A DNA stretch of 64,000 nucleotides, taken from the IMG/VR virus record IMGVR_UViG_3300005193_000001, positions 62,001 through 126,000 of that record; one strand, given 5' to 3'. Below the pieces are notes generated by a model. That model ran no database searches and had not been told where the DNA came from. It saw nothing but the letters and a program-made list of their open reading frames with translations. Made by a program: the position numbers and the translations under genes. This document shows positions 19,914-45,462 of this stretch, piece after piece (within the stretch, counting starts at the first letter, position 1; each line of letters opens with the position of its first letter). Source of the stretch: an uncultured virus (IMG/VR IMGVR_UViG_3300005193_000001). Lineage: Duplodnaviria > Heunggongvirae > Uroviricota > Caudoviricetes.

Positions 19914-20924
19914 TCAGGTAGCGATGGGCGCTTTTATGAATGGACCACACTTGTAGTTTTCAAGCTCGACTCCGAAGTCCTCCAAGGTCTCGAAGTCGAG
20001 ATCAATAGAAGGAGCGTTGTAAGCCGGGAGATCGATAAACTCGCGGCACTGCTCCAAGTGATTCTGGTAAACGTGCGTGTCACCTCCAATCCAAATAAAC
20101 CTTCCGGGTTCGTGTCCCGTGGCTCTAGACATGAGCAACAGCAGGAGACTATAAGATGTGAGATTGAAAGGAACGCCGAGAAACATGTCGGCACTTCTTT
20201 GGTACATCTGAAGGTGAAGCTTCCTTTTGTTCTCTCCGGGTTCGCTCCAGAACTGAAAGAGAACGTGACAAGGACTCAACGCTGCTTCTTCTGTTTCAAC
20301 GGGTCCGTGGTACTGCGGGTTCCAAGAGCTTACGACGTGCCGTCTGCTGTCCGGATTGTCTTGAAGCGAACTTTTGACCCTGCTTATTTGATCAATGGGC
20401 TCGTCGTATCCAATGACGGGCCAGCTTCTCCACATTTTGCCATAAATCGGACCGAGTTCATTTCCGAGAGCGTCCTTTTGGTCCCTATCCTTGATCTTTT
20501 CCACGTATTCCGACTTTGAAAGCGGCGTAGCGTCGAAATCCTTTTTCGCCACCTCCAACACTTTATCCTCGCTCATGTCCGCAACTTCGTCCATGTCATG
20601 AATTTTGACCATGGACTGGCGAGACATTTCAGCGAAATTGGACAGGTAAGCGTCGTAAGCGTTCGGTGTCCAGATCGATACCTCGTCGTCAAGAAGCGGC
20701 TTTATGTGGGTTTGTCCACGAAGAAACCACCTGAGTTCTGACACTATAGAGTCAAAGACTACACGTTTCTTGGTTATAATAGGGAACGAATCTTCGGATA
20801 CGTTCAATCGAATTCTGCGCCCAAATGCACTTCTCGTCCCTGTGTTTGTCCGGTCCTTTTTCTCCACACCTTCCGAGAGAACGCTTTTGAGAACTGAGGT
20901 GTATTCTTCGTCTATTCTAGCCAT
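19914..20924 (-). CDS. thyA: Thymidylate synthase (ThyA) with an internal insertion
   Basis: DRTNTGT, ELRWFLRG, LGPIYGKMWR, NPDSRRH, LSPCH (catalytic Cys), YQRSADMFLGVPFN (Asn indicates dUMP specificity), GDTHVYQNH. Confidence 0.96.
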   Translation of the reverse strand: MARIDEEYTSVLKSVLSEGVEKKDRTNTGTRSAFGRRIRLNVSEDSFPIITKKRVVFDSIVSELRWFLRGQTHIKPLLDDEVSIWTPNAYDAYLSNFAEMSRQSMVKIHDMDEVADMSEDKVLEVAKKDFDATPLSKSEYVEKIKDRDQKDALGNELGPIYGKMWRSWPVIGYDEPIDQISRVKSSLQDNPDSRRHVVSSWNPQYHGPVETEEAALSPCHVLFQFWSEPGENKRKLHLQMYQRSADMFLGVPFNLTSYSLLLLLMSRATGHEPGRFIWIGGDTHVYQNHLEQCREFIDLPAYNAPSIDLDFETLEDFGVELENYKCGPFIKAPIAT

Positions 20925-20928
20925 TATA

Positions 20929-21492: not shown

Positions 21493-21494
21493 TT

Positions 21495-21935: not shown

Positions 21936-21936
21936 T

Positions 21937-23730
21937 TTATCTGCTGAGTTCTATTTCGAGTTGTTGTGGTGGACTCACCGCTAGTGATGGCGGAGAGGTG
22001 TCGGTGATTCCAACGTGCATAACGCTGTAGTTCGTTTCAACGTAGTCCTTGAAGAATCTGTAAAAGTCTCCAAGAATGCTTGTACCCTCGTCAACCTCTT
22101 CCCGGTTTTCGCTTTCGTAGTTCATAGCCCTCGCGCCGAATCCCTGATATTCTATGTTGAAAGCTTTGTCAACTATGGGGTCCGGAGCGTCTTCTATTCC
22201 GAGATCGGGGTCAAACTGTTTAGCTTTCACGTCTATGTCTTGAAGCTGCTGAGGTGGTGTGGCCAGTTCTCTCGAAACAAACTTCCACTCGTCGTTGTTC
22301 TCAATGTCGAAAAATGGAGCGTTGCGAAGTATCTGTTCGTTGCTAGTGCTTTGAAAAGTCTCCGGTCCGAGGGCCGTTAAACTGTTGATCTGGTCTCCGG
22401 GAACGAACAATTGTAAATTAATGATGGCGGTCACGCTTCCAGATGTGGTACTGTCGGTGACATATGGAGACTCGAAGTCGTAGAAGTATGCATTCCCCGT
22501 AGCTACTACCTTGTCGTTGTCGCTTCCGGAAACCTCGAAGGTCACGTAATCGCTGTCGAGTTTATCGTTGAAGAAGTCTGCTAGATTTTGGGGGTCACTA
22601 AAAGAAGACGGCAAAGACTGCAGATCAAATGCTTGCTCGTCGCTATCAATCGTGAAAGTGGTAAAAGAGACGGATTCGAATTGTCCGAGACCAAAAGTAG
22701 AGTCGTCGTTGAAGTCGTGAACTAAGAGGTCATTGGCTATCGTCTTGACATAAGCGTTTCTGCCCCATTCTACACCTATTGACTCCGATATTTGCAGATC
22801 ACCTTGTCCAGCGTCGATGCTCGTTTCGAAGTCGCTAAAGGGGGCATTCGTATCGAGGTTCATCGTGGCTTCGAATAACACGGCTCCGGTTGATCCCCTC
22901 GTCGTGGTGTTGGGAAAGTTGAAGGTTATGTCCTGTTCTTCCAATTCTTCGTTTGCCGTGGCTCTTGGGCTGAAAACGCTTTGAAGTTTGTCTTCCAAGG
23001 AGTCTGTGGGATTTGTCTTCCAGACAAACCTGTTCTCGGGATCTGGGTTCGACACCGTGAAGTCTATGTCTTTGAAAATCTCCGCGCTTTCTGCCGGGAT
23101 GATCGTTGAAACGAGGACTCTTCTAAATCCATTCGGAGCATTTTTGGGAAGAATGTTGAATATCGGAATGGGATTTCCGCCATCCGGGTCTGTTCGAACA
23201 GGAAATGTCTTAACGAGACCCAAAACGGCTATGGCCTGGAATACACGGCTCAGATAGCATTCCGTCAAAGTTCTTCTGTCGGGGTAGGAGAGACCGCCTA
23301 TGTACGGATCTACGGGGTCTTGACCGGGATCGAGGATTTGGTTAATGCATTCGTCCGCTACGCCGCTGTTTTGGATCAGAATCTTTGCGGCGTTGGGGCT
23401 GTAGGTGTCGGGTAGGTTAGAGTAAAACGTCTCCGCTATTGGGCGAAACGCGGTTTCCGCATACAGGTTCTTTTCTTGATCCACGATTCCCCATTGAACC
23501 TGTACCGCTCGTTTCTTACCAAAGTTAAAAGAACGAGCGGCTTCGATTACGTTATCGAGCCCGAAATCCCGATAGAGTTCCTTGTTCTTGCTGTTATTCA
23601 AGACCACACCATCGATATCTCGGTCTACCAACTTGTCGTCTTCAAAATCCAGTCTACCGAGTTCTACTGGAAACTCGTCGTCCGCAAGCAGCAGGAAATC
23701 GTGTATCGTATCTGGATCTCCTTGTATCAT
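21937..23730 (-). CDS. Large acidic hypothetical protein, possibly virion-associated
   Basis: 597 aa, D/S/T/F-rich; no motif recognised. Confidence 0.65.
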   Translation of the reverse strand: MIQGDPDTIHDFLLLADDEFPVELGRLDFEDDKLVDRDIDGVVLNNSKNKELYRDFGLDNVIEAARSFNFGKKRAVQVQWGIVDQEKNLYAETAFRPIAETFYSNLPDTYSPNAAKILIQNSGVADECINQILDPGQDPVDPYIGGLSYPDRRTLTECYLSRVFQAIAVLGLVKTFPVRTDPDGGNPIPIFNILPKNAPNGFRRVLVSTIIPAESAEIFKDIDFTVSNPDPENRFVWKTNPTDSLEDKLQSVFSPRATANEELEEQDITFNFPNTTTRGSTGAVLFEATMNLDTNAPFSDFETSIDAGQGDLQISESIGVEWGRNAYVKTIANDLLVHDFNDDSTFGLGQFESVSFTTFTIDSDEQAFDLQSLPSSFSDPQNLADFFNDKLDSDYVTFEVSGSDNDKVVATGNAYFYDFESPYVTDSTTSGSVTAIINLQLFVPGDQINSLTALGPETFQSTSNEQILRNAPFFDIENNDEWKFVSRELATPPQQLQDIDVKAKQFDPDLGIEDAPDPIVDKAFNIEYQGFGARAMNYESENREEVDEGTSILGDFYRFFKDYVETNYSVMHVGITDTSPPSLAVSPPQQLEIELSR

Positions 23731-23789
23731 AACATTTTCACAAAAGCTTAAAGAAACTTCACGACCTTCAGAGTCGTGAAAGACCTGAC

Positions 23790-24026
23790 ATGATGAAGTC
23801 CTGGGAGGTTAATTACTTGAAAGACTTGCTCAAAGACGGAGAAGTGTATCCTGTCGGTGCATCTTACCAGATGATGGTCTTTAAAGACAGGATTATGGTG
23901 GCGTTACCTGAAAGGACGGAGAAGCCCGATTTTCTGCTTTCGAAACCTGATTTTCCGAAAGACCCAGACGGGTGTGAACGCTACTGGTGGGGCTTCACAG
24001 ACGAGAAGCTGGGCGTTGAGAAGTAA
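23790..24026 (+). CDS. Hypothetical protein
   Basis: ATG 8 nt after an AGAAAC-N18-GTGAAA element (23752-23781). Confidence 0.5.
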   Translation: MMKSWEVNYLKDLLKDGEVYPVGASYQMMVFKDRIMVALPERTEKPDFLLSKPDFPKDPDGCERYWWGFTDEKLGVEK

Positions 24027-24027
24027 A

Positions 24028-24543
24028 TTACTCTATTTCGTTCATCGGATCATCGAACCACCACGGAACTTCCGTTTCTTTTATTCTTCTGCCATACTCT
24101 TCCTTGTCCGGCGTTTCTCTTCCCTTAACCACGTCTTCGACGAATCCAAGCGTGATCGCGTTTGCGACAATATCTCCGCACCTCGCAGTCACCTCTTTTT
24201 TAAGTCCATCGATGATGATGCTTCCAGTCACGCCAGCGAATTCTGAATAGAGCTCGTTCGGTACTTCGATTTCTCTCGTGGAATACACGAAATCGTAGTG
24301 GGTCATCGGGAAGTTATGGACAACGTACTCGTCTCGAACGCAAATCCGCTTGAACCCCGCTACGTTGATCCACTCGGCGTACCCGTTTTCCGAAAGAACT
24401 TTCGGTTCTCCGAACGTTTCGGCAAGCTTCTGGGTATATTCCGCTGGAGGGTCGTGCGTCCACCTTTCCGTAGCTTCACGAACACGCTCCTGTTCTCGGA
24501 TAACGCGCCTTACGTTTTCTTTGATGAATTTGCGCAACGACAT
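24028..24543 (-). CDS. Viral protein with N-terminal LRKFIKENVRRVIRE motif
   Basis: 171 aa; DEYVVH...HYDFVYS...GSIIIDGLKKEVTARCG. Confidence 0.7.
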   Translation of the reverse strand: MSLRKFIKENVRRVIREQERVREATERWTHDPPAEYTQKLAETFGEPKVLSENGYAEWINVAGFKRICVRDEYVVHNFPMTHYDFVYSTREIEVPNELYSEFAGVTGSIIIDGLKKEVTARCGDIVANAITLGFVEDVVKGRETPDKEEYGRRIKETEVPWWFDDPMNEIE

Positions 24544-24561
24544 AGCTATCTTCCTTGATTT

Positions 24562-24912
24562 TTAAGTTCTCGCCATGAATGGAACGTCGAGCTTCTCAGC
24601 TTCTCCGTTCTTGATTTGTCTTTTAATCATTTCGCGACTTCTGGCATTGTCGATAGCGACTGGCTTCCCGGACTCGTAACCAAGAATTCGCTCGATCTCG
24701 ATATCTTCTCCGCGTCGAACAACGTCAACGGCAAGCATGTCGCCGCCGTAACGGGAGTCGGGGTTAGCTACTCCATAGACTTCGCCCTTTTCTTCTGCGG
24801 ACCGCCTACCGCCGACACCCGTTCGTGCTCGTGCTTCTGAAATTTCTTCTCGTACCAAATTCTTGATCAAAGATCTCAATTTGGCTTCCTTACTCGTCTC
24901 GTTAAATCTCAT
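24562..24912 (-). CDS. Small protein with KLRSLIKNLVREEI motif
   Basis: 35/42 nt identity with the 5' part of 24918..25115. Confidence 0.65.
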   Translation of the reverse strand: MRFNETSKEAKLRSLIKNLVREEISEARARTGVGGRRSAEEKGEVYGVANPDSRYGGDMLAVDVVRRGEDIEIERILGYESGKPVAIDNARSREMIKRQIKNGEAEKLDVPFMART

Positions 24913-24917
24913 AGTTA

Positions 24918-25115
24918 TTATTTGTATTTATCGCTTTTCCTTTTTTCTCCATCCGAACGTTCGATGTATCCCTGCGCTTTGCAGCTTGCTCTTTGAGTGA
25001 ACCCCATTTCTGACTTCGGGGTGTTCTTGCAGTATTCTTCGCTCGTCTTCTCTTTTAGGATTTCCTCTCGTACCAAACCTTTAATCAAGGATCTTAATTT
25101 GGATCTTTTGCTCAT
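24918..25115 (-). CDS. Small protein with KLRSLIKGLVREEI motif
   Basis: YCKNTP..MGFTQRASCKAQG. Confidence 0.65.
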   Translation of the reverse strand: MSKRSKLRSLIKGLVREEILKEKTSEEYCKNTPKSEMGFTQRASCKAQGYIERSDGEKRKSDKYK

Positions 25116-25154
25116 AATTCTTTGTAAATTTGGTCTATCCTTACGTAGTTTCGT

Positions 25155-25367
25155 TCAAATTTTATCCGCCAGATTCTCGATAAAGTCTTTGGATACTACT
25201 AGCCGCCTGTTAATATCGTGAATTCCTTCTTTATCGACTCCACCTATCTGTTCGAAGACCTCGTACTTATCGTCCTCCAGCTTTTTCGCACAGACATAGA
25301 TTTCATGGCCTTCCCCTTCGTCGGAGAAATCGGAACCATCTTCATCGCATTTCTGTCTGAAAACCAT
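25155..25367 (-). CDS. Hypothetical protein
   Basis: ATG 23 nt after the late-type motif GATACTTATA (25391-25400). Confidence 0.55.
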   Translation of the reverse strand: MVFRQKCDEDGSDFSDEGEGHEIYVCAKKLEDDKYEVFEQIGGVDKEGIHDINRRLVVSKDFIENLADKI

Positions 25368-25408
25368 TGTTGTCGCGGGTTGAAGTCACTTATAAGTATC
25401 AGCCGATA

Positions 25409-25455
25409 TGAAGCCTCTTTGAAGACCGGAACAAGACTCATGAACGTCGGTTAAC
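25409..25455 (+). promoter_or_regulatory. ECF-sigma-like promoter plus 11-bp tandem repeat upstream of the purZ-like operon
   Basis: TGAAG-N6-TGAAG-AC-CGGAAC-N17-GTTAAC. Confidence 0.65.
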
Positions 25456-25505
25456 AATAATCGCACGAAGGCACTGAACCTACAAATTACTTTATTGATT
25501 TTAAT

Positions 25506-26606
25506 ATGAGTGATACGTTAGAACAACCAAGAAGTTATGCGGACGTAGTTGTCGGCGGACAAGCCGGAAGTGAGGGAAAGGGCGCACTCGTCGCTCACCT
25601 CCTCCGAGAAGAAGATTACGCCGCTGCCGTACGTCCCGGATCTTCTAACGCCGGACACACGGTTTACGACGACGAAGGAGAGCCCTACGTTCATCAAGTC
25701 ATTCCATCAGCAGCTACCGTCACCGACGACGTCCACTGCTACATGGCCCCCGAATCTTCGTTTGGGCTCGACGAGTTCTTCGAAGAGTACCAAGATATGG
25801 TTGATCGATGGGGAGCCGAGAATGCCCGAGATCGTATGCGGATTGACAAAAAGGCCGCTATCATCACGCATGAACACCGGGCTACAGAAACGAACAAGAA
25901 ACTCGGAAAGGACATTGGTTCTACGGTTCATGGTTGCGGCGCTGTGCGAGTGGAGAAGATCTGGCGCTCCGCTGGAGACGTGAGACTCGCTGAACAGTAC
26001 GAAGGTCTCGACGACTTCGTCACCGGACGACGGGTTCCGGAAATGCTGACCCAACACGGACAACGAGACGAGTCTGTAATCGTGGAGGGAACGCAGGGTA
26101 CCCTTCTTTCCATGAACCAGTCTCCTCACTGGCCGTTTTCTACGAGCCGTGACTGCGTGGCGTCTTCTTTCCTTTCTTCTTGTGGGCTCCCACCTTCGGC
26201 TGCGAACGACGTATGGGCGGTGTTCCGTACTTACCCGATTCGAGTTGGAGGGTACAGTGGACCCATGGACGGAGAAGAGATCGACTTTGAAACAATCGCT
26301 GAGAGGGCTGGTCACGAAGTTCCTCCAGTAGAGTTCACTTCGGTCACGAACAAGAAGCGCCGAATCTTCGAGTGGTCTTGGGAACAGTTTGAGTATACTA
26401 TCACGCTCAACGACCCCAACAAGCTCGCGATCACGTTCATCGACTACCTCAATGCTGACGACTTCGGCGTCGAGGAATGGGAGAACCTGTCCGATACTTC
26501 CAAGATGTTCGTTCAAAAGGTAGATCAGAGGGCCGAAGACATGAACGGCTCTTCTGTCGAATTCTTGAAGACCGGACCGCGTCCTGAGCACAGTATCGTA
26601 CTCTAA
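25506..26606 (+). CDS. purZ: Adenylosuccinate synthetase family protein of PurZ/PurZ0 type (candidate dSMP synthetase)
   Basis: GGQAGSEGKG (PurA GDEGKG with Asp->Ser), NAGHT, IGSTVHGCG, EGTQG, TSRD, FRTYPIRVGG, TSVTNKKRR, TFIDY; short 366-aa form. Family membership is secure; the PurZ0 assignment is by motif only. Confidence 0.75.
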   Translation: MSDTLEQPRSYADVVVGGQAGSEGKGALVAHLLREEDYAAAVRPGSSNAGHTVYDDEGEPYVHQVIPSAATVTDDVHCYMAPESSFGLDEFFEEYQDMVDRWGAENARDRMRIDKKAAIITHEHRATETNKKLGKDIGSTVHGCGAVRVEKIWRSAGDVRLAEQYEGLDDFVTGRRVPEMLTQHGQRDESVIVEGTQGTLLSMNQSPHWPFSTSRDCVASSFLSSCGLPPSAANDVWAVFRTYPIRVGGYSGPMDGEEIDFETIAERAGHEVPPVEFTSVTNKKRRIFEWSWEQFEYTITLNDPNKLAITFIDYLNADDFGVEEWENLSDTSKMFVQKVDQRAEDMNGSSVEFLKTGPRPEHSIVL

Positions 26607-26610
26607 ACCC

Positions 26611-27735
26611 ATGGGTGGCAACGCTCTAAATGTGGAGACCGAAAGGGCGTCTCCACACCATTATCTTAACGTCTTTGTTCAGGTTCAACACAAAATTCTG
26701 AACGAGTGGCCTAATGCCCAATTGTACCTGCCGCGCAAGCACAGGTACAAGCAGGACCATGGAGACCTTGATCTCCTCGTCCGGAGGGACACGGTTGATC
26801 TCTCGCGGGATTGGATAAAGGAGAGCTTCGGCGTCGAAGAGGTCCACGTCAATGATGGCGTCTGGACTTTCGGCGTCGGGCTCCCTTTCCCCGCGAGTGA
26901 CACTTATGAGGTAAGCAATCTACAGGTTGACCTTGTCACAAAACGTCAGGAGCATTGGGGAATGGCGAAGGCGTTCTTCGATCAGAGCGGACTTGGCAAC
27001 CTCCAAGGCAAACTCGCTCGTTGGCTCAGGTACAAGTGGGGTTTCCAAGGGCTGCGAATGCCCGTCTACAAGGACCCCGATGGCGAAAGGAGCATCAAAT
27101 ACGGCGAGTACGTGCTCACCCAAGATCCCCAAGAAGCCTTCGAGTTCCTTGGTTTCGATTGGGACAGATTTGAAGAAGGCTTCCAGAATATGAGCCAGAT
27201 CTTCGAATATGTGAAGTCGAGCGAGTACTTCTGCCGGGAGCCGTTCATGCCAAAAAATATGACCGCCGACCAGAAACAAAGGGACCGCAAGCGTCCCGTT
27301 TGGGACCAGTTCGGTAGTTACCTTAAAGATCTCGAAAAGCTTGGTGAGCTTCCGTCGAAACCCGACAGCAGACCTACGCAGGAAGAGGCAATAGAGAAAG
27401 CGAAAGAAGCCTTCCCGTTCTGCGATCTTCACGATCAACTTTCTTTGGACAGAGAGCGCGTGCTACTTCGGGGAAAAGCGAAAGAAACCTTCACCGGACG
27501 CGATCCTATGGAGGAGTTTGGCGTGGAAGGCAAAGAGCTTGGAGAAATGCTCAGCAACTTCTACGAGACCTTCAACACCTCTAGGCACCGCTACGAGTGG
27601 TTGGTGCGAAACAGCCGCGAAGAAGCACTTGAGCGGTTCAAATTCGCAAATTCCGACGAGTTTGAAGATGTAGATCTCGAAAAGGCCCAAGGCGACGAAA
27701 AATCAATCACTATGGGTAATCGCAAACGATACTAA
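26611..27735 (+). CDS. DNA polymerase beta-superfamily nucleotidyltransferase
   Basis: KQDHGDLDLLV (GDxD) plus third Asp in QVDLV; starts 4 nt after the purZ stop. Confidence 0.75.
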   Translation: MGGNALNVETERASPHHYLNVFVQVQHKILNEWPNAQLYLPRKHRYKQDHGDLDLLVRRDTVDLSRDWIKESFGVEEVHVNDGVWTFGVGLPFPASDTYEVSNLQVDLVTKRQEHWGMAKAFFDQSGLGNLQGKLARWLRYKWGFQGLRMPVYKDPDGERSIKYGEYVLTQDPQEAFEFLGFDWDRFEEGFQNMSQIFEYVKSSEYFCREPFMPKNMTADQKQRDRKRPVWDQFGSYLKDLEKLGELPSKPDSRPTQEEAIEKAKEAFPFCDLHDQLSLDRERVLLRGKAKETFTGRDPMEEFGVEGKELGEMLSNFYETFNTSRHRYEWLVRNSREEALERFKFANSDEFEDVDLEKAQGDEKSITMGNRKRY

Positions 27736-27752
27736 ATCCGTTCACGCAACTT

Positions 27753-27989
27753 ATGGACACGGAACAGTTGCACGACTTCATAGACGACGCGATTCGCTGG
27801 ACAGTAATTGGCACGGTATCCTTCATGTTCATTTCCGTGAGCATGGTATCGCTCGTCGTATCCATACCCTTCCTTATCGCGCTGGCTCTGTGTTTGATAA
27901 CCGTGCTTTTCATTTCTGGAGCCACATGGCTTGTGATTGTGGTTCCTAAAGTCGCTTGGGAAGAGTACCAGAACTACAAAAACAAATAG
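27753..27989 (+). CDS. Small membrane protein
   Basis: Long hydrophobic stretch (about 2 TM). Confidence 0.55.
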   Translation: MDTEQLHDFIDDAIRWTVIGTVSFMFISVSMVSLVVSIPFLIALALCLITVLFISGATWLVIVVPKVAWEEYQNYKNK

Positions 27990-27990
27990 C

Positions 27991-28425
27991 ATGAAAACAA
28001 GCACCGATCTAGCGTTAAAACGCGAAGAACTTATTGAATCCGGAAAGCTTCTGAACACCGCCGAGACCTTTACCGCCCGCGTGTATGTGGGGCTTTACGA
28101 CACCGAAAGTGATTTGGAACAAAGTCAGATCAAGCTGCGAAGATCTTGTCAGCAGTTTGTTGAAGAAGTAGGTCTCTGTGTCAACGTTCAGGAAACGGTC
28201 TATCAATATGGCTCCAATAGAACGGGAGGAAAAGAAAAGGGAGCAGTTGTTGAGCTTATACACTATCCTAGATTCGAGCATGGGAATCCGGAGGAGAAGA
28301 TAACCGTGAACGCGCTGGACTTGGCGGAAATGTTGATGGAAGAATTTCATCAAAAGCGAGTATCAGTAGTAACCAATACGGAGACTTACACTCTTCAGAA
28401 TCCCGACCACGAAGACGTGTTGTAA
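27991..28425 (+). CDS. Hypothetical phage protein
   Basis: Likely start MKTSTD; LCVNV...GKEKGAVVELIHYPRF...FHQKRVSVV. Confidence 0.65.
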   Translation: MKTSTDLALKREELIESGKLLNTAETFTARVYVGLYDTESDLEQSQIKLRRSCQQFVEEVGLCVNVQETVYQYGSNRTGGKEKGAVVELIHYPRFEHGNPEEKITVNALDLAEMLMEEFHQKRVSVVTNTETYTLQNPDHEDVL

Positions 28426-28426
28426 C

Positions 28427-28720
28427 GTGGAATTTTCCGTTTTCGTTGTAGCCGTAGTTATCTTAGGCACTCTCGTTGTGCCGAGAGCTACGTTTGTCAT
28501 TTTCTGGTTGTGTGCTACCGAAGTTGTAAGTGGTGTCTTCGCGGGTCACGAGATCATGGCCGCTTTCGCCTGGATCTTTTTTCCGACCGCTTTGATGACG
28601 GTTTTTCTCGTAGAATCTTTGTTTCCGGAAATGTCTGCTGCATTATATGTCCTTTTAATCTTCATGGCAGTCGCTAACGATTTAGAAGAACAAAGCAAAA
28701 GATACAATGACAGTTTCTAG
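28427..28720 (+). CDS. Small membrane protein
   Basis: Hydrophobic 97 aa ORF with GTG start. Confidence 0.5.
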   Translation: MEFSVFVVAVVILGTLVVPRATFVIFWLCATEVVSGVFAGHEIMAAFAWIFFPTALMTVFLVESLFPEMSAALYVLLIFMAVANDLEEQSKRYNDSF

Positions 28721-28952
28721 AGAAAAAATACGAAAATGGCTCGATAGGAGATCAGATGCCAAGTATATGACGATCCACAGCGATAATTTCTCCTACGAGT
28801 ATTATCCGTCTTATGTTTCTTCTGACGAAGAACTGGAAGACGAGATCAAAGAGGCAAGAGAGCGGAACATGCATTCTATCAAAGAAATCTACTGTTACGA
28901 CGACGATATCGAGCAACAACTGGATGAAAACAAGACTTGGCATTCACCATGA
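28707..28952 (+). CDS. Hypothetical phage protein
   Basis: Acidic ORF; DNFSYEYYPSYV. Confidence 0.6.
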   Translation: MTVSREKIRKWLDRRSDAKYMTIHSDNFSYEYYPSYVSSDEELEDEIKEARERNMHSIKEIYCYDDDIEQQLDENKTWHSP

Positions 28953-29179
28953 AAGGACTTTTAGAGGATTTAAAAGAAAGGATAAACGTTAACACTCGTG
29001 CTCGTACGCGGATAAAGAGAATGAAGAGAGACGAGCCTCTTCCCATCGAGCAGGTGCACGAGAACGCGCCCGAGTCTTGCAGAGACAGGGTTCGGTATCA
29101 CAGGAATCTCTATCGCTACAAGATAGTCTACAAACGAACTCGGATTCCTCTTCTTGACCCAAGGCTGGAAGACCTCTAG
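28949..29179 (+). CDS. Hypothetical basic protein
   Basis: ATGA overlap with the upstream stop. Confidence 0.5.
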   Translation: MKGLLEDLKERINVNTRARTRIKRMKRDEPLPIEQVHENAPESCRDRVRYHRNLYRYKIVYKRTRIPLLDPRLEDL

Positions 29180-29188
29180 TGACTTTGT

Positions 29189-29590
29189 TTGTCGTCAACT
29201 TCCGTTTCCAGAATGATAAAGCTTAGCAACCTTCTGCAGAATATTAAAGAATTCGGAGTGCGGATTGGAGAAAGGATGCCGTCTCTTTTGAAGTATCCCT
29301 TCGCGACTGTGTTTATCCCACTTCATTGTATCGTCGTATCTCAACTTATTGCCGATTTAGTCGTCGGACTCGGTATCATCGCTAGTGTCCTGTTTTTCAC
29401 GAAAGTGTTCGCCGTTCCTCAAGTCATTTTCATCGTCACGGTTCTGTACCACCTCTCTTGTCTCGCTCTATATCCCTTCTTTTTGGGTTTAGCTGAGACC
29501 AGCAAAAACGTGATAGGGAACACTTTGAAGGGTTACGGCTACGCCTGTCTACTTCTGCTTTTGACTTGGCTCATGCTACCTCTCTTTTAA
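29189..29590 (+). CDS. Membrane protein
   Basis: Several hydrophobic segments; start uncertain. Confidence 0.5.
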   Translation: MSSTSVSRMIKLSNLLQNIKEFGVRIGERMPSLLKYPFATVFIPLHCIVVSQLIADLVVGLGIIASVLFFTKVFAVPQVIFIVTVLYHLSCLALYPFFLGLAETSKNVIGNTLKGYGYACLLLLLTWLMLPLF

Positions 29591-29596
29591 CAGCTG

Positions 29597-29651
29597 CTTC
29601 ATAGGCGCTTCACATAACCTACGGAACGGCCTATATCTCTGCACGTGTAAA
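29597..29651 (+). promoter_or_regulatory. ECF-sigma-like promoter plus 11-bp tandem repeat
   Basis: CTTCA-N6-CTTCA-N9-CGGAAC-N17-GTGTAAA. Confidence 0.65.
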
Positions 29652-29695
29652 TGGATGAAGCAAGCTTTACCAACCACCAACTAAAAGAGGTCACC

Positions 29696-30061
29696 ATGAT
29701 TGGTCAGATGCGAAAGGGAGAGGACATTGAGCACTACGCAGACAAGAAGGAGGAACAGGAAGCCGTTCTGCGTCGGGAGAACCTGCTCGATGCCCTCAAC
29801 GTTGTCGATTCACAGGGCAATTGGATTTTGGGAGAGATCTTCGGCTACGGATTCAACGCCAAGGTCTACACCGAAGCCAACGAGAACTACGGCATCACTT
29901 CTCACGGTGCCGATGGTCACATTTCGAAGCTCACGGTGAAGGAGGATGGAGAGAAGGTGGTATTCAATTATGACCGTGGTTTCGACTCCAGCGATCTTTC
30001 CGTGACCGAAGAGGCGGACATTATCGAAGCCATCGAACTTTACATCAATCGCAACCTGTAA
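29696..30061 (+). CDS. Hypothetical protein
   Basis: Likely start MIGQMR; FNAKVY...YGI...ISKLTVK...FNYDRGFD. Confidence 0.65.
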   Translation: MIGQMRKGEDIEHYADKKEEQEAVLRRENLLDALNVVDSQGNWILGEIFGYGFNAKVYTEANENYGITSHGADGHISKLTVKEDGEKVVFNYDRGFDSSDLSVTEEADIIEAIELYINRNL

Positions 30062-30062
30062 C

Positions 30063-30311
30063 ATGTCGTCGCTCTACAACGAGCCTTATCACCCGCTGAA
30101 GCCCCCGAAGTCAGAAGAGGTTCGAGACGCGAAGCTCATGACTGTCAAGAACCTCTCGGGGGTCGAATGTCGAATTCATCGGCTTTCGGACAGGTACTTC
30201 GGTGTCTTCGAGATTGAGGGCACGGTCTTCATGACCGAAGGTCACGACAACAGAGAAGATGCAGAGGAGTCGGCGGAGCAAGTCGCAAGTCTTTTTCCGG
30301 ATAATTCGTAG
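30063..30311 (+). CDS. Hypothetical protein
   Basis: Tightly packed operon ORF. Confidence 0.55.
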   Translation: MSSLYNEPYHPLKPPKSEEVRDAKLMTVKNLSGVECRIHRLSDRYFGVFEIEGTVFMTEGHDNREDAEESAEQVASLFPDNS

Positions 30312-30317
30312 GTTCCC

Positions 30318-30584
30318 ATGTTCGTCAAGTTTGGAGCCTTAGCATTTCTTGTCGTTACCGGAGCGTGTTGGGCAACTGCCCTTTGGAGAATGAACGAGCC
30401 TGGAATCCGGCTTTTCCATACCTTCGCTGGCCTCATAGTCATCGGGCCGTTCCCGCTTCTTCTCTTGTGGCTTGTGGAATACGGGCATCTTCCCGCCTAC
30501 CACGAAGGCTATGCCCTTTTGATTCCCGGAGGTCTTCTTCTAATGTTAGCTGTAGCTTTCATAGGCGACGTGTTCAATCTTTAA
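30318..30584 (+). CDS. Small membrane protein (about 3 TM)
   Basis: Hydrophobic segments. Confidence 0.55.
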   Translation: MFVKFGALAFLVVTGACWATALWRMNEPGIRLFHTFAGLIVIGPFPLLLLWLVEYGHLPAYHEGYALLIPGGLLLMLAVAFIGDVFNL

Positions 30585-30585
30585 C

Positions 30586-31595: not shown

Positions 31596-31599
31596 CACC

Positions 31600-33393: not shown

Positions 33394-33400
33394 TAACACG

Positions 33401-33809: not shown

Positions 33810-35576
33810 TTACACGTTGTCGTCGTTGGCGATAACAACGAGTCCGTAGAATTCCGGACGTACAATCCTCTTGGCGTACCTCGTCATGACTCCACGGCGC
33901 GGCGTGAAGTTGTTGGGGTCGTAGACGATAGGCGTCATCATCAGTGGCACGTAAGGTGCGTAGACCGCTCCGGTTTCGAGGAAGTTCTGGCCTCTAAACC
34001 CGACGAGCATGATGTTCTCAAGCATGTACGGGTTCTTGTAGACCTGAAACCTGTTGTAGAGCGTTCCAACGCGCTGGACACCCATGGCGAAGTTGAACTC
34101 GTCGCCTCCGGTGTCGACCCTGTATCCCTCGATGCTCTCAAGGATGGTAGCAACGTCAGGGGAGCAAACGATGAAGTTAGCCCCACCTCGCATCGTCTTT
34201 TGGTGGATGCGGTTGCTGACGCGCTGGATCTTGTTCCCGAGAGTCTCGAACCACTCGTTCTTGGTTCCAGTGTGAGTACCACGGTCCTCGAACGTTCCGG
34301 TGTTCTCGTTGTACTCGTAGCCCGGAAGTGCGCTCCAGTACTCCTTCGTGAGCGCGTTCTGAATGAGCATGTCCAGAATCTCAAGGTCAATCTCCATCGA
34401 GATGTACTCCGAGAGCATGGAAGTAAGCTCCGCCTCGGCGTCAATGGAGTGGTAAGCGTTGAGGTCCTGAGCAAGCTCTGGAGTCCAGACTGCCTTGAGC
34501 TTCCTCGTCTTTGCGACGATTGGTACCTGCTCAAGGTCAAAGTCGATCTCCGGAATGTCGAGGATCTCGTATGTGTTGTTGGTTGCGTCACGGAAGCTAT
34601 CGGGACCGTGAGTATCACCACCAGCAACGTTCGGGTTAGGAGAACGATCTTCGAAGTCACCTCGGTCGGGAGCGTCAGGCTGCTCGTGCCAGATGACCGT
34701 CACGGTGTCTCCGGAGTCAAGGCCGGAAGTGACAGAGCCATCAGTGAAGTCGTCCGGGGTTCCGTTGTCGTCCCAAACGCTTTCGGAGACCTGAGCTACG
34801 AACTCCACCTCGGTGGGTCCTCCACTTTCGTTACGTGGGTTAGGCCCACCGCCAGCGTCAACCTGCCTCGTGTGACGTGGGAAGAACTGGTCAATCCTGT
34901 CGTCTTCGATAACGAAAGCTCGGTGCCCGTCCATGTCCGCCGTGTTCTCCACGTCAACCGTGACGAGAGCGAGACGGTCAAGGGTGAGGTCAAAGTCACC
35001 GTCTTCCTGAATTACGAGGTTCGGGTCAGTGCGAAGCCTCTCGTTGACGAAGCTGCCACCGAGATTGGTAAGTGCAGTGACGTCGAGAACCTCTGCGCTG
35101 TCGTCCGTACGGTCGTTGATCGAGTAACCGAAGCGTCCCTCACCGTAAAGACCTCCTTGCGGCTGCTCCTCCGTCGAGGTGTCTCCGTGTACGAAGTCAC
35201 CAGCGTTGAACTGACTCTGGCTTGTTCCGTATTTGAAATCGAGGTAGAAGATAAGGCCGGAAGGAAGGTTCATCGGCTGAACCGAGACAAACTCCTTGGC
35301 TACAATTTCACCAAAGATGCGGCGAACGAGAGGAAGAGCAACTCCGCTCCACTCCTCGCTACCTTCTGAGGTTCCGGTGCGTGTCGCCTCTTGAATTAGC
35401 TGATTATACTGGTTCTCCAGGAGGACGGCGACACCGTGTACTTCGTGATCGTCTTCGAGTCCGTCCAGGAGTCCCGTTGGTGCCCACTTGTTAACAAGCT
35501 CTCGACTCTGTTCGAGAAGAGCTTTCTGAGGTGAGCTACCCTGCGAAAATTTGGATAGATCCAACTGAGTGCTCAT
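33810..35576 (-). CDS. Major capsid protein (T4 gp23-like) with an acidic insertion
   Basis: KWAPTGLL, LLENQ, PLVRR, VSVQPMNLPSGLIFYL, AKTRKLKAVWTPELAQDLNAYHSIDAEAEL, YAPYVPL, FTPRRGVMTRYA. Confidence 0.97.
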   Translation of the reverse strand: MSTQLDLSKFSQGSSPQKALLEQSRELVNKWAPTGLLDGLEDDHEVHGVAVLLENQYNQLIQEATRTGTSEGSEEWSGVALPLVRRIFGEIVAKEFVSVQPMNLPSGLIFYLDFKYGTSQSQFNAGDFVHGDTSTEEQPQGGLYGEGRFGYSINDRTDDSAEVLDVTALTNLGGSFVNERLRTDPNLVIQEDGDFDLTLDRLALVTVDVENTADMDGHRAFVIEDDRIDQFFPRHTRQVDAGGGPNPRNESGGPTEVEFVAQVSESVWDDNGTPDDFTDGSVTSGLDSGDTVTVIWHEQPDAPDRGDFEDRSPNPNVAGGDTHGPDSFRDATNNTYEILDIPEIDFDLEQVPIVAKTRKLKAVWTPELAQDLNAYHSIDAEAELTSMLSEYISMEIDLEILDMLIQNALTKEYWSALPGYEYNENTGTFEDRGTHTGTKNEWFETLGNKIQRVSNRIHQKTMRGGANFIVCSPDVATILESIEGYRVDTGGDEFNFAMGVQRVGTLYNRFQVYKNPYMLENIMLVGFRGQNFLETGAVYAPYVPLMMTPIVYDPNNFTPRRGVMTRYAKRIVRPEFYGLVVIANDDNV

Positions 35577-43560: not shown

Positions 43561-45462
43561 TTATATATCGTCCAGTGGATTCTCGTGGCCTAGAACTTCT
43601 TCTTCCTGCATCCAATCAATGTCTTCCAGCATGTCATCAACCTCTTCTTCGGTCAACGACTCTCTGTTGAACTCTTCTCGTTCTCTTTCGTAAGTCTCGC
43701 TGATAAGCCGTCTGTGTTTTTCCATACCCTCAGCGGAAAGTGGACCAGTTCCTTGGTATTCGTGGTCCACGTCTCCCGGAGTAGTCCTCATGTCGTCGCT
43801 TGATGGCATTTCGTGAGAACTGCCAGGATCAAGAGGGTTATATTCAGGGTCTTCTTCTTTTGGAACGTCTTCGTTCTCTTCACCCTCAAGATCAAAGCCC
43901 TCGACTTCACTCTTTCCACTCATAGCTAAGTCGCCGGGAGTTCCAAAGCTTTGTCCCGTCTTTATTGGATCGTTACCTTCACGGGTAAGCTGGTCTTTTC
44001 TGAACTCTCTCTTCCAATCGTCGACTTTAAGTCTTCTTTCTCTCTCGATCTCTTCTTCCGTCATGTTGAAGACGTTCTTCATAATCCAATCCGTAGAGTG
44101 GAGATTTCTGTCTTCAATGTCACGGGCGAGCTTGTACTTTTGTTCGAGTATATTAATTCTCTGTTCCTCAACGAAATGAGAAGGATGTGTTAGCCCGAGT
44201 TTAAAGTCAACGAGTCTTTCGTCTCGAATTCCCTGAGAAAAGAGGTGGATGATACCAATCTTCGTTAGCTCAGAAGTCATGACCTTCTGAATCTGCTCCA
44301 CCATATTTGCGAACTTAATCGACTCCTGAGCAAGTGTCGCTTTCCCTTCGATATCTCTTTCGTATCCGAGAAAAGCGTTGGGAACTCGGAGACCGGACAT
44401 GAGCTTTTGTCTCAGATATTCAATGTCATTAATCCCGTCCCAATTGAGTCCTCCAAGAGTGTTAATCTCGGTAGCGTCGTCTCGACCCCTCACTGGCATG
44501 TAGTAGTCGTCCATCATGTTCATGAGGTTAAAGTCGAGGTCGTATTCCCCGGTGTCCGGGTCCACGAGAGGCTGGGACTTCAGCTCTTCAATGGTTCTAT
44601 TGATATAAGGCTCTACGGCTTTGGGCTCTATGTTACCAACGTCGATCTTGAATACCCTTCTTTCGGGCGCACGCATGAGCCTGTGTATAAGCATAGCGTC
44701 TTCCATCATCGTAAGACGACGCCAAGTTTGCCTTCCACCTTCGAGAACGGAACGTCCATATGGAGCGTATTGCGTGTCTCTAAGGCTGAAGTGAGCGAGT
44801 TCCCAATAGCCGAACTCTTCTTCTCCACCGGGGCCATCGTATTGAAAAGTGACTTCGTATGGATCGGAAGGATCGTTTCCTTCTACTCTAGTAACATGAT
44901 ACGGAGACAGAGGTTGAACGTTGATAACCCCGTAGCTTTGCTTGTTAGAGTAGTCAATATCGACTTTGAGATAGGTGTCTCCGTATTTGACCATTTCTCT
45001 AACCCAAGACCTGAGGTTGTGCTCGATATTGAGAATATCGTTGTACAGGTTCTTGAGGATACGCTCCACGCTTGCATGTGGGGATTTGATAGTGACCACG
45101 TCTCCGTGCTCGTCCTTTCTAACGGACTCGTCGGCATAGAAATCAAGAGCCGAAGAAACGATGGGGTCTTGATCCATGAGTTCATAATCGTGGTACCTGT
45201 GGAATCTCGGATAGTCGTCCGGATACGGACTACCGCCTCCGATACCGCCCCCAAAGCCTTGGGTTTGGCTCCCTCCTCTTGCATTGTATCCGGCGCTTCC
45301 ACCACCTGCGCCACCGAAGCCACCTCCATTTGAGTAGTCTCTGGATATGTCTTGTATATTGGAGGTATCTACGATTTTGATCTCGTCTCCCCCAACGTTT
45401 CTTACAACAACGTTAGAAGAGAAAAGGCGAGATAGAGCATCACGCAGTCCCGAATCGGCCAT
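43561..45462 (-). CDS. Portal protein (T4 gp20-like)
   Basis: YELMDQDPIVSSALD, PYGRSVLE, MMEDAMLIHRLMRAPERRVFKIDVGN, DDYYMPVRG, DIEYLRQKLMSGLRVP. Confidence 0.96.
   Translation of the reverse strand: MADSGLRDALSRLFSSNVVVRNVGGDEIKIVDTSNIQDISRDYSNGGGFGGAGGGSAGYNARGGSQTQGFGGGIGGGSPYPDDYPRFHRYHDYELMDQDPIVSSALDFYADESVRKDEHGDVVTIKSPHASVERILKNLYNDILNIEHNLRSWVREMVKYGDTYLKVDIDYSNKQSYGVINVQPLSPYHVTRVEGNDPSDPYEVTFQYDGPGGEEEFGYWELAHFSLRDTQYAPYGRSVLEGGRQTWRRLTMMEDAMLIHRLMRAPERRVFKIDVGNIEPKAVEPYINRTIEELKSQPLVDPDTGEYDLDFNLMNMMDDYYMPVRGRDDATEINTLGGLNWDGINDIEYLRQKLMSGLRVPNAFLGYERDIEGKATLAQESIKFANMVEQIQKVMTSELTKIGIIHLFSQGIRDERLVDFKLGLTHPSHFVEEQRINILEQKYKLARDIEDRNLHSTDWIMKNVFNMTEEEIERERRLKVDDWKREFRKDQLTREGNDPIKTGQSFGTPGDLAMSGKSEVEGFDLEGEENEDVPKEEDPEYNPLDPGSSHEMPSSDDMRTTPGDVDHEYQGTGPLSAEGMEKHRRLISETYEREREEFNRESLTEEEVDDMLEDIDWMQEEEVLGHENPLDDI

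What the first reader, a model, noticed from the sequence alone, without database searches (positions are those of the whole stretch)
25506..26606. PurZ0-type enzyme: candidate 2-aminoadenine (Z) DNA pathway in a halophilic T4-like myovirus
Seen: a short (366 aa) PurA-family protein whose catalytic GDEGKG reads GSEGKG, with RTYPIRV (Arg, and Ile where PurA has Thr), TSVTNKKRR and TFIDY. Established: the Asp13->Ser change marks PurZ, which condenses dGMP and aspartate on the way to dZTP. ATP-using PurZ has Asn at the nucleotide-specificity position (PurA TKLD), whereas GTP-using PurZ0 keeps Asp. Inference: this is a PurZ0-like enzyme and the phage may place Z in its DNA. The characterised Z-genome phages I know of are small sipho/podoviruses, so a large T4-like phage of a halophile would be a new context. 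No datZ (HD dATPase) or mazZ (MazG-like) partner is recognisable in this window, so partners lie elsewhere, substitution is partial, or the product has another use.
Basis: partly seen in the sequence, partly recalled or inferred. Interest (0 to 1): 0.9.

Follow-up and report, generated by a model that had tools for sequence, protein, structure and literature searches.

The report
PurZ-like enzyme in brine jumbo phage
A 263-kb T4-like phage from brine carries a gene for the kind of enzyme that some phages use to replace adenine with 2-aminoadenine in their DNA, but none of the usual helper genes, so whether its DNA is really altered remains open.

Summary
ORF 25506..26606 (+) encodes a 366-aa PurA-family protein with GSEGKG, RTYPIRV, TSVTNKKRR and TFIDY exactly as described. 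In a maximum-likelihood tree it lies inside a Ser-type clade (100/99) that excludes both long PurA and short archaeal PurA. An AU test rejects joining it to short archaeal PurA (p 0.009).

It is not a member of the published PurZ0 or PurZ clades. It heads a separate clade of 47 metagenomic clusters. It scores 233.9 bits on NCBI's PurZ model, whose cut-off is 300. It has Ala where other relatives have an aromatic residue.

The host genome is a complete 263-kb T4-like phage from brine with a family B polymerase. Six-frame searches find no DatZ, MazG/MazZ, DUF550, DUF5664 or NDT. Its dUTPase resembles that of a purZ-less relative more than DutZ.

Best reading: a dGMP-using PurZ-group synthase with a GTP-type donor pocket. 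Z in the DNA is possible, perhaps only partial, and unproven. This is a new variant in a new context, with moderate-to-high interest.

The parts
25506..26606 (+). PurZ-group (Ser-type PurA-like) synthase gene, 366 aa
   Evidence: ORF. PF00709 at 2.3e-39. phrog_1211 '2-aminooxy adenylosuccinate synthetase' at 1.2e-65. Tree placement. AF2 model with pLDDT 92.9.
25566..25583 (+). P-loop GSEGKG. Ser22 (25569-25571) replaces the catalytic Asp13 of PurA. Ala20, just upstream, replaces the aromatic residue of other relatives.
   Evidence: Ser in 47 of 47 own-clade proteins and 206 of 217 other relatives. Ala20 in 47 of 47 own-clade proteins, against an aromatic residue in 198 of 217 others.
26226..26246 (+). 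RTYPIRV. Matches P233-I234-R235 of phiVC8 PurZ. Canonical PurA has Lys and Thr here.
26337..26363 (+). TSVTNKKRR. T278 corresponds to phiVC8 T262 (E. coli has Gly). R285 and R286 correspond to the aspartate-site arginines.
   Evidence: The role of T262 is taken from bioRxiv 10.1101/2025.10.22.683976, section 8.
26433..26447 (+). TFIDY, the nucleotide-base pocket. D313 is as in PurA and PurZ0 (phiVC8 has Asn297). F311 and Y314 are as phiVC8 F295 and Y298.
26611..27735 (+). Downstream ORF, 374 aa, 4 bases after the stop. Pol-beta-type nucleotidyltransferase-like (GDLDLLV). Probably a lineage gene, not a partner.
   Evidence: phrog_24943 'DNA polymerase' at 2.1e-27. No Pfam, NCBIfam or PDB sequence match. 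Its homologues list many longest-contig lengths that do not appear in the purZ-like list.
19914..20924 (-). Thymidylate synthase, the nearest nucleotide-metabolism gene
   Evidence: PF00303 at 5.5e-79. TIGR03284 at 274.9 bits against a cut-off of 108.
33810..35576 (-). T4-type major capsid protein (context marker)
   Evidence: PF07068 at 4.1e-81. Nearest records: LR756508.1 at 65.6%, then Microcystis, Flavobacterium and Rhodothermus phages.
43561..45462 (-). T4-type portal gp20 (context marker)
   Evidence: PF07230 at 4.5e-72.

Best explanation
The ORF encodes an active enzyme of the PurZ group. It most likely condenses dGMP with aspartate to give N6-succino-2-amino-2'-deoxyadenylate. Its donor pocket keeps the guanine-reading Asp, so the donor is probably GTP or both GTP and ATP. 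Host adenylosuccinate lyase and kinases, or the phage dNMP kinase, would carry the product to dZTP. The T4-type family B polymerase would then place Z opposite T.

A T4-like phage that breaks down host DNA would have dGMP to hand without a MazZ. No dATP-removing enzyme is recognisable, so replacement of A may be partial rather than complete.

Shown here: family, clade, residues, conservation, genome context and absence of known partners. Inferred: substrate, donor, fate of the product and any Z in the virion DNA.
For: Ser22 stands at the Asp13 position. P244-I245, T278, F311 and Y314 equal the phiVC8 PurZ residues P233-I234, T262, F295 and Y298.

I compared 12 short archaeal PurA with 8 PurZ/PurZ0-group references. 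Of the 8 columns that separate them, the query has the PurZ state at 6, including all 5 where long PurA agrees with archaeal PurA.

In the ML tree of 81 rows the Ser-type clade has 100/99 support and is sister to short archaeal PurA. An AU test rejects query clade plus short PurA (p 0.0092).

Catalytic His51, Gln197 and Arg285/Arg286 are kept in 47 of 47 own-clade proteins.

NCBI's PurZ model is the top hit (233.9 bits). PHROGs names the family 2-aminooxy adenylosuccinate synthetase.

The genome also encodes a dNMP kinase, RNR, ThyA and a dUTPase.

[quoted passage not shown] All 147 phage PurZ-group sequences carry Ser (PMC12884076, section 24).
Against: The score on NF038379 is below its cut-off (233.9 against 300). 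Wayne (366.7), phiVC8 (397.2) and Archimedes (325) pass. The short-PurA model scores almost the same, 229.9.

Ala20 replaces the aromatic residue (phiVC8 F12) said to line the 2-amino pocket.

No DatZ/YfbR-like/HD_3, MazG, DUF550, DUF5664 or NDT was found at E<=1 in six frames. The one small HD protein is a MESH1/alarmone-hydrolase type.

The dUTPase is 41% identical to that of purZ-less Microcystis phage Mel-JY01 and only 25-29% identical to DutZ.

None of the 4 nearest GenBank T4-like relatives has a PurA-family gene.

CGATCG is wholly avoided, although PvuI is mostly blocked by Z.

Ser-type relatives occur in cellular operons and in a biosynthetic-cluster-like setting.
Confidence: 0.5

Rival explanations
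1. The enzyme acts on a guanine (or other 2-substituted purine) nucleotide, but the product does not go into virion DNA. It would instead reshape the nucleotide pool, or make a nucleotide used in conflict with the host. This would parallel the kinase / PurZ-like / dCTP-deaminase-like modules of cellular genomes.
For: 554 confirmed Ser-type loci lie in bacterial and archaeal species genomes. In 4 of 5 genomes checked they stand beside a normal full-length PurA. 4 of 6 annotated loci show RNase_H_2-like, PurZ-like and DCD-like genes in a row, with ADK, dNK or AAA_18 kinases. 13 of 18 long relatives are fused to a P-loop kinase and 1 of 18 to a DCD-like domain. The phage lacks every known Z-pathway partner. 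Ala20 is unique to this clade.
Against: The phage has no DCD-like or fused-kinase partner next to the gene. No defence or counter-defence model matches it. All characterised members of the Ser-type group feed DNA synthesis (PMC12884076).
Confidence: 0.27
2. It is an ordinary adenylosuccinate synthetase, an auxiliary gene that boosts AMP and dATP supply from IMP for an AT-richer phage.
For: The best solved matches by sequence and fold are P. horikoshii PurA (1.5e-41; TM 0.85). The short-PurA model scores 229.9 bits, and within the clade P0033 and P0047 score higher on it than on the PurZ model. The GTP-type Asp313 is kept.
Against: The catalytic Asp is Ser in 47 of 47 clade members. The score is below every PurA cut-off: 229.9 against 368, and 160.5 against 395.55. 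The tree and AU test separate it from short PurA (p 0.0092) and from long PurA.
Confidence: 0.08
3. The gene is a decaying or inactive passenger picked up from high-GC brine viruses.
For: Its closest relatives outside the nearest phages (66-72% identity) lie on 67-71% GC contigs that share only a PolB with this phage. The nearest GenBank relatives lack it.
Against: The frame is intact. All checked catalytic and binding residues are conserved across 47 clusters down to 50% identity. The AF2 model is confident, with pLDDT 92.9. The gene's base composition is close to the genome's.
Confidence: 0.05

Closest known systems
PurZ0 (Gordonia phage Archimedes, PDB 7VF6; Arthrobacter phage Wayne)
   Same: Short PurA-like fold. 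Ser at the Asp13 position. Asp kept at the nucleotide-base position. P-I-R and T-x-V-T-x-x-x-R-R motifs. 31-32% identity by tblastn. Fold TM 0.81.
   Different: Not grouped with them in the free tree, though AU does not exclude it (p 0.27). The pocket reads F-I-D-Y rather than M-L/A-D-Q, and Ala20 stands for Phe. The genome has no DmtZ/NDT, no DUF5664 and no PolA-type DpoZ. The host virus is a 263-kb T4-like phage, not a ~44-kb actinophage.
PurZ (Vibrio phage phiVC8, PDB 6FM1/6FKO; cyanophage S-2L, 7ODX)
   Same: Ser14, P233-I234, T262, F295 and Y298 equivalents are all present. Fold TM 0.82-0.83.
   Different: Asp313 where phiVC8 has Asn297, the ATP-type state. Only 9 of 217 other relatives have Asn. 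No DatZ next door or anywhere in the genome. In phiVC8 the HD hydrolase lies about 260 bases downstream of purZ.
Short archaeal adenylosuccinate synthetase (P. horikoshii PH0438, PDB 5K7X/2D7U; NCBIfam NF003295)
   Same: Best solved match by sequence (1.5e-41) and fold (TM 0.85). Same length class and C-terminal region. Asp at the guanine-reading position.
   Different: Asp13 changed to Ser, Lys to Arg241, Thr to Ile245, Gly to Thr278. 229.9 bits against a cut-off of 368. AU rejects a common clade.
Ser-type PurA-like genes of bacterial and archaeal genomes (kinase / PurZ-like / dCTP-deaminase-like modules)
   Same: Same Ser-type clade. G-S-E-G-K-G, P-I-R and D-Y motifs. 33-40% identity.
   Different: They sit in cellular chromosomes beside RNase_H_2-like, DCD-like and kinase genes, or are fused to them. 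The phage gene stands alone. They have an aromatic residue at position 20.

Membership tests
PurZ group (succino-amino-deoxyadenylate synthase, NCBIfam NF038379) | Ser in place of the catalytic Asp13 of PurA | tested here: met
   S22 aligns with E. coli Asp13 and phiVC8 S14. Ser in 47 of 47 clade members.
PurZ group (succino-amino-deoxyadenylate synthase, NCBIfam NF038379) | Score at or above the curated cut-off (300 bits) | tested here: not met
   233.9 bits. The controls Wayne (366.7), phiVC8 (397.2) and Archimedes (325) pass.
PurZ group (succino-amino-deoxyadenylate synthase, NCBIfam NF038379) | Branches with Ser-type enzymes, apart from long and short PurA | tested here: met
   The Ser-type clade has 100/99 support. 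AU rejects query clade plus short archaeal PurA at p 0.0092.
PurZ group (succino-amino-deoxyadenylate synthase, NCBIfam NF038379) | dGMP + aspartate gives dSMP in vitro | not testable with these tools
   Needs an enzyme assay.
PurZ (ATP-using, phiVC8/S-2L type) | Asn at the nucleotide-base position (phiVC8 N297) | tested here: not met
   D313.
PurZ (ATP-using, phiVC8/S-2L type) | Companion DatZ (HD dATPase) and MazZ/DUF550 | tested here: not met
   PF03819, PF04447, PF13023, PF12917 and phiVC8 DatZ give no match at E<=1 in six frames of the complete genome. The HD_4 protein is MESH1-like.
PurZ0 (GTP-using, Wayne/Archimedes type) | Ser13 together with Asp kept at the guanine-reading position | tested here: met
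   S22 and D313. That PurZ0 uses GTP is recalled from Tong et al. 2023, which is not held.
PurZ0 (GTP-using, Wayne/Archimedes type) | Monophyly with characterised PurZ0 | tested here: inconclusive
   The free tree puts it in another 27-row group (99/99). Forcing the clade costs 20.9 lnL, p-AU 0.266.
PurZ0 (GTP-using, Wayne/Archimedes type) | dutZ in the genome (all 98 PurZ0 genomes; PMC12884076 section 24) | tested here: inconclusive
   One dUTPase homologue is present. It scores 88.2 bits on TIGR00576, like the DutZ references (90.8 and 88.5). It is 41% identical to the Dut of purZ-less Mel-JY01, against 25-29% to DutZ.
PurZ0 (GTP-using, Wayne/Archimedes type) | DmtZ (NDT-like), DUF5664 and PolA-type DpoZ-1 | tested here: not met
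   PF05014 and PF18909 give no match at E<=1. The replicase is a T4-type PolB. The only PolA-like match is weak, in a 438-aa ORF.
Canonical adenylosuccinate synthetase (TIGR00184; short form NF003295) | Catalytic Asp13 and a score above the cut-off | tested here: not met
   Ser22. 160.5 against 395.55 bits, and 229.9 against 368 bits.
T4-like myovirus | gp23 capsid, gp20 portal, prohead protease, T4-type terminase, sheath, gp43-type PolB, gp32, gp25, baseplate | tested here: met
   The MCP and PolB have nearest relatives among T4-like phages.

The most novel reading that the evidence does not exclude
This T4-like brine phage makes a natural hybrid A/Z genome. It has no dATPase and uses a family B replicase. 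Its stand-alone PurZ-group enzyme would turn surplus dGMP into an adenine-equivalent. The surplus is assumed to arise because the genome is 48.7% GC and the host DNA it breaks down is presumed GC-rich (host unidentified). This would be the purine counterpart of the dCMP-to-dTMP route and would give partial Z substitution. It would be the first Z-DNA in a myovirus or jumbo phage, the first with a PolB replicase, and the first natural partial substitution.
Probability: 0.2. Interest if true: 0.85.

Novelty: new variant of a known kind. Interest (0 to 1): 0.6.

Why it matters
All proven Z-genome phages are small sipho- or podoviruses. They carry a purZ / datZ / mazZ (or dutZ / dmtZ) set and, in many cases, a PolA-type DpoZ (PMC12884076 passages; abstract of PMC8599892 in the listing).

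A conserved PurZ-group enzyme standing alone in a complete 263-kb T4-like genome with a family B polymerase raises a direct question. Can Z, whole or partial, be made and copied without any of the known helpers?

It also shows that the Ser-plus-Asp ('PurZ0-like') state is the common one among metagenomic relatives (206 of 217), not a rare intermediate. The Ser-type family also reaches into cellular operons. Both points bear on how the Z pathway arose. Each question can be tested with one enzyme assay and one nucleoside analysis.

Tried and rejected
- Megablast of window 20000-40000 against GenBank phages found no match.
- An IMG/VR scan with the protein returned only two weak 35-residue matches, so no close viral context came from that collection.
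- A look-up of earlier notes on this genome returned nothing.
- Tong et al. 2023 (PurZ0) is not held, so the statement that PurZ0 uses GTP rests on recall. PMC12884076 section 24 gives the ATP/GTP preference in the opposite order to its own introduction.
- Fold search does not discriminate. PurA, PurZ and PurZ0 all give TM 0.78-0.85.
- I considered the downstream 374-aa nucleotidyltransferase-like ORF as a partner. I set this aside because its homologues list many longest-contig lengths absent from the purZ-like list, and only three lengths coincide.
- I checked the HD_4 protein as a possible DatZ. It is a MESH1/small-alarmone-hydrolase type.
- ESM Atlas on two unknown ORFs beside thyA gave no nucleotide-pathway lead. 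The 186-aa ORF scored under 0.9, and the 145-aa ORF is a phage Cys-phosphatase type.
- PADLOC has no model for the PurZ-like or DCD-like proteins.
- I tried palindrome avoidance as a proxy for Z protection. It is inconclusive, because GC-rich sites may simply reflect the hosts' enzymes.
- Sequencing runs: no RNA holder is listed. The four DNA rows are kept as contigs, which cannot show base modification.
- ORF calls on the 67-71% GC relatives (L117-L121) are crude and some long ORFs there are probably spurious.
Full report
**The observation.** Window 25506..26606 (+) is an intact ORF of 366 aa. It matches Pfam Adenylsucc_synt at E 2.3e-39. Among solved structures it matches P. horikoshii short PurA (1.5e-41), phiVC8 PurZ (3.7e-33), Gordonia phage Archimedes PurZ0 (2.3e-28) and S-2L PurZ (1e-25). 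S22 lies on Asp13 of PurA and S14 of PurZ. I245 lies on Thr of PurA and I234 of PurZ. T278 lies on phiVC8 T262. D313 lies on E. coli Asp333, where phiVC8 has Asn297.

**The genome.** The window is bases 62001-126000 of a single 263,015-bp contig with 48.7% GC. It is an IMG/VR virus record that CheckV rates 100% complete.

I scanned 57 of the window's 77 ORFs of 60 aa or more against Pfam, and all 292 ORFs of 70 aa or more outside the window. The scan shows a T4-like phage:
- Structural genes: gp23 capsid, gp20 portal, prohead protease, T4-type terminase, sheath, gp25 and baseplate.
- Replication genes: gp43-type PolB, gp32, a RecA/UvsX-like protein, a DnaB-like helicase, primase and SbcCD-like proteins.
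- Nucleotide metabolism genes: RNR, ThyA, dUTPase and dNMP kinase.

ARAGORN finds 47 tRNA genes. The capsid protein is closest to an uncultured 484-kb phage (65.6%), then to Microcystis phage Mel-JY01, Flavobacterium immuto phages and Rhodothermus phage RM378. Peptide deformylase, GroES, IF-1 and DnaJ homologues add to this picture. Together they point to a bacterial host, perhaps among halophilic Bacteroidota or Rhodothermales. This is inference; the host is not identified.

Four run rows from one study, labelled 'brine metagenome', hold the DNA and may be its source. The proteome is moderately acidic, with median pI 5.08.

**Where the protein belongs.**
- *Database neighbourhood.* A word-indexed search of 5.8 billion proteins gave 853 hits, of which the best 120 are listed. 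P0002-P0047 are 50-87% identical to the query. A full HMMER scan of 1.84 billion representatives gave 3794 hits, of which 150 are listed.
- *Residue states.* I aligned the 264 full or near-full proteins in hand. Ser occupies the Asp13 column in 47 of 47 members of the query's own clade and in 206 of 217 others; the rest are 4 Asp, 3 Gly and 4 gaps. Asp occupies the nucleotide-base column in 47 of 47 and 206 of 217, with Asn in only 9. The 'Ser plus Asp' state that defines PurZ0 by residues is therefore the common state in this neighbourhood.
- *Tree.* I built a careful IQ-TREE tree of 81 rows under LG+G4. The rows were the query, 9 own-clade proteins and 48 other relatives that I picked from the 265. 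To these I added 8 Ser-type proteins from named cellular genomes, 4 phage references, 5 long PurA and 6 of the 12 short archaeal PurA fetched. The other 6 short PurA were dropped as near-duplicates. Rooted on long PurA, short archaeal PurA (100/98) is sister to one clade of all 70 remaining rows (100/99). The query clade (100/100) sits in a 27-row subgroup (99/99). It is separate from the PurZ0 references (100/99) and from the phiVC8 group (100/99).
- *AU tests.* They reject query clade plus short archaeal PurA (lnL difference 86, p 0.0092). They do not reject query clade plus PurZ0 references (lnL difference 20.9, p 0.266).
- *Curated models.* The query scores 233.9 bits on NF038379 (PurZ), whose cut-off is 300. 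It scores 229.9 on NF003295 (short PurA), whose cut-off is 368. The three characterised phage enzymes pass the PurZ cut-off.
- *Signature columns.* Of 8 columns that separate 12 short archaeal PurA from 8 PurZ/PurZ0-group references, the query has the PurZ state at 6.
- *A clade-specific change.* Ala20 is found in 47 of 47 own-clade proteins. phiVC8 has F12 there, and 198 of 217 other relatives have Tyr, Phe or Trp. [quoted passage not shown]
- *Fold.* The AF2 model is confident (pLDDT 92.9). Fold search cannot tell PurA from PurZ, with TM 0.78-0.85 for all.

The verdict on family is as follows. The protein is a member of the Ser-type PurZ group in the broad sense. It forms a distinct subfamily. 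It is not demonstrably a member of the published PurZ0 clade, and it is not a canonical PurA.

**Partners.** Published Z phages carry one of two helper sets. PurZ lineages carry DatZ plus MazZ/MazZ-2/DUF550, sometimes with DUF5664. PurZ0 lineages carry DutZ (98 of 98 genomes), DmtZ (85 of 98) and DUF5664, with PolA-type DpoZ-1 or DpoZ-2 (PMC12884076, sections 24 and 25).
- Six-frame profile searches of the complete genome found no match at E<=1 for MazG, DUF550, DUF5664, NDT, HD_3 or YfbR-like, nor for phiVC8 DatZ itself.
- The 201-aa HD_4 protein matches MESH1 and small alarmone hydrolases (7.9e-16), not DatZ.
- The single dUTPase scores 88.2 bits on TIGR00576, the same range as the DutZ references (90.8 and 88.5), and all are below the cut-off. 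However, it is 41% identical to the Dut of purZ-less Mel-JY01 and only 25-29% identical to DutZ. It is more likely the lineage's own Dut.
- The replicase is a T4-type PolB. The only PolA-like match is weak, in a 438-aa ORF.
- None of the four nearest GenBank T4-like relatives has any PF00709 match.

**Relatives' contexts.**
- *Metagenome loci.* Five loci encode proteins 66-72% identical. They have 67-71% GC. With this phage they share only the purZ-like gene and a PolB at about 25% identity; the PolB was found in 3 of the 5 loci. One locus has a weak MazG-like ORF 3 kb away, and one has a DUF6378 domain next door.
- *Downstream ORF.* The 374-aa ORF next to the gene hits phrog_24943 (2.1e-27). 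Only three longest-contig lengths (263015, 6478 and 26647) appear in both its homologue list and the purZ-like list. I read the adjacency as lineage history rather than function. This is inference.
- The purZ-like gene therefore looks like an accessory gene that moved between brine viruses carrying family B polymerases.

**How it most likely works.** The residue pattern and clade support a dGMP-and-aspartate ligase with a guanine-type donor pocket. A T4-like phage that degrades host DNA to dNMPs would not need a MazZ to obtain dGMP. This follows from established T4 biology and is not shown here. Host PurB and kinases, or the phage dNMP kinase, would finish dZTP. Without a dATPase, A would still compete, so partial substitution is the simplest expectation. 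I put 0.5 on this reading as a whole, somewhat more on the substrate assignment, and less on Z actually being in the virion DNA.

**Evidence that cuts the other way.**
- Ser-type PurA-like genes are not confined to phages. A pattern scan of 185,579 species genomes confirmed 554 loci; the pattern itself required G-S-E.
- In 4 of 5 genomes checked, the Ser-type gene stands beside a normal full-length PurA.
- In 4 of 6 annotated loci it is flanked by an RNase_H_2-like gene and followed by a dCTP-deaminase-like gene, with ADK, dNK or AAA_18 kinases nearby. One actinomycete locus instead shows P450s, a PPDK-like enzyme and a NUDIX protein.
- 13 of 18 long relatives are fused to an N-terminal P-loop kinase, 1 of 18 to a DCD-like domain, and 4 of 18 show no extra Pfam domain.
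- PADLOC 2023 has no model for these proteins. My literature searches found no description of them.

Ser therefore marks a chemistry, probably a 2-amino purine substrate, more safely than it marks a Z genome.

**A side test.** Only 12 of 4096 hexamers are absent from the genome, and all 12 are palindromes. They are the 8 pure G/C palindromes (0 seen, 436 expected from composition) plus ACCGGT, CCTAGG, CGATCG and CTCGAG. Palindromes with four A/T letters are not depleted (1639 seen, 1622 expected).

Pure G/C sites would not be shielded by Z, which fits a Z genome. But CGATCG is fully avoided even though PvuI is 'mostly resistant' on dZ DNA. AvaI (CYCGRG) is sensitive. XhoI, AgeI and AvrII were not tested (PMC12944874, supplementary Table S1 passages). 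GC-rich sites may also simply mirror the enzymes of GC-rich hosts. The test is inconclusive.

**Novelty.**
[quoted passage not shown] A metagenomic PurZ homologue is therefore not new in itself, and this IMG/VR record may already be in such lists. I could not check this, because the supplements of the relevant papers and Tong et al. 2023 were not seen.
- Four searches paired PurZ with other terms. 'Jumbo' gave 3 papers, none read. 'Myovir' gave 3 papers, and the one relevant paper, read in passages, is a podovirus study. 'T4-like' gave 1 review, seen in the listing only. Archaeal virus, haloarchaea and family B polymerase terms gave no paper combining PurZ with PolB. None places PurZ in a T4-like, PolB or jumbo phage.
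- I rate this a new variant of a known kind: a separate subfamily (Ala20, below the curated cut-off), standing alone in a new type of virus.

Noticed in passing
whole genome G000:C1 (window included): Extreme palindrome avoidance. Only 12 of 4096 hexamers are absent on both strands and all 12 are palindromes: the 8 pure G/C palindromes (0 seen, 436 expected) plus ACCGGT, CCTAGG, CGATCG and CTCGAG. AGGCCT occurs 2 times, GCTAGC 10, CAGCTG 11 and GTCGAC 14. CTAG has O/E 0.5.
   Followed up: partly
L023-L102, e.g. L082:4355-8786, L030:508-4167, L047:3885-8143, L029:3923-8637: Ser-type PurA-like genes are widespread in bacterial and archaeal chromosomes (554 confirmed loci). They form a recurring module of RNase_H_2-like, PurZ-like and dCTP-deaminase-like genes, with ADK, dNK or AAA_18 kinases. 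Some sit near restriction, HsdM, TniB or HD-dGTPase-like genes. Many relatives are fused to a P-loop kinase or to a DCD-like domain. There is no PADLOC model, and the papers I searched give no description.
   Followed up: partly
L097:8-12976 (Actinophytocola xanthii): Here a Ser-type PurA-like gene (identical to P0122) lies between two P450s, a thioesterase, an 1151-aa PPDK-like enzyme, an HPr-kinase-like ORF and a NUDIX protein. This looks like a small-molecule biosynthetic cluster.
   Followed up: no
proteins P0143, P0164, P0184, P0215: A short PurA-like group that keeps Asp in the P-loop but has NAEHRF in place of NAGHT and QTDSGxxER in place of TxVTxxxRR, so its aspartate/IMP site is remodelled. 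It branches, with weak support (87/66), next to the query clade and shares the FEWSW motif.
   Followed up: no
genome 150-198 kb and 50.2 kb (L003, L007-L009); suppressor at genome 151425-151500, minus strand: 47 tRNA genes. One has anticodon CUA, which ARAGORN calls tRNA-Pyl; it may be an amber suppressor. The genome also has a Thg1-like tRNA-His guanylyltransferase (window 16991-17800), a CCA-adding-type enzyme, three RNA ligases and 2H/HD/HAD 'Swiss Army Knife' RNA-repair domains.
   Followed up: no
window 11116-13962 (+), window 47422-50211 (-), L002:3720-6158 (-): Inteins with LAGLIDADG homing-endonuclease domains interrupt the SNF2-type helicase, the large terminase and the DnaB-like helicase.
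   Followed up: no
window 26611-27735 (+): A 374-aa ORF with a GDLDLLV nucleotidyltransferase-like motif. It hits phrog_24943 'DNA polymerase' (2.1e-27) but has no Pfam, NCBIfam or PDB sequence match. It is conserved at 60-80% identity on many brine contigs.
   Followed up: partly
window 1029-4337 (-) and 4701-7097 (-): Two large adjacent proteins (1102 and 798 aa) both end in a tail-sheath C-terminal domain.
   Followed up: no
L010:7583-8938 (-) = genome 211583-212938: A MESH1/small-alarmone-hydrolase-like HD_4 protein lies next to an NT5C-type 5'-deoxynucleotidase. This may be a (p)ppGpp/(p)ppApp and dNMP pool-control pair.
   Followed up: partly
window 15654-16469, 29651-30061; L009:11660-11938: Domains otherwise typical of haloarchaea occur in a phage whose other genes point to a bacterial host: HVO_A0261_N (below its cut-off), DUF7678, and DUF7387 (below its cut-off). 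This hints at gene exchange within the brine community.
   Followed up: no
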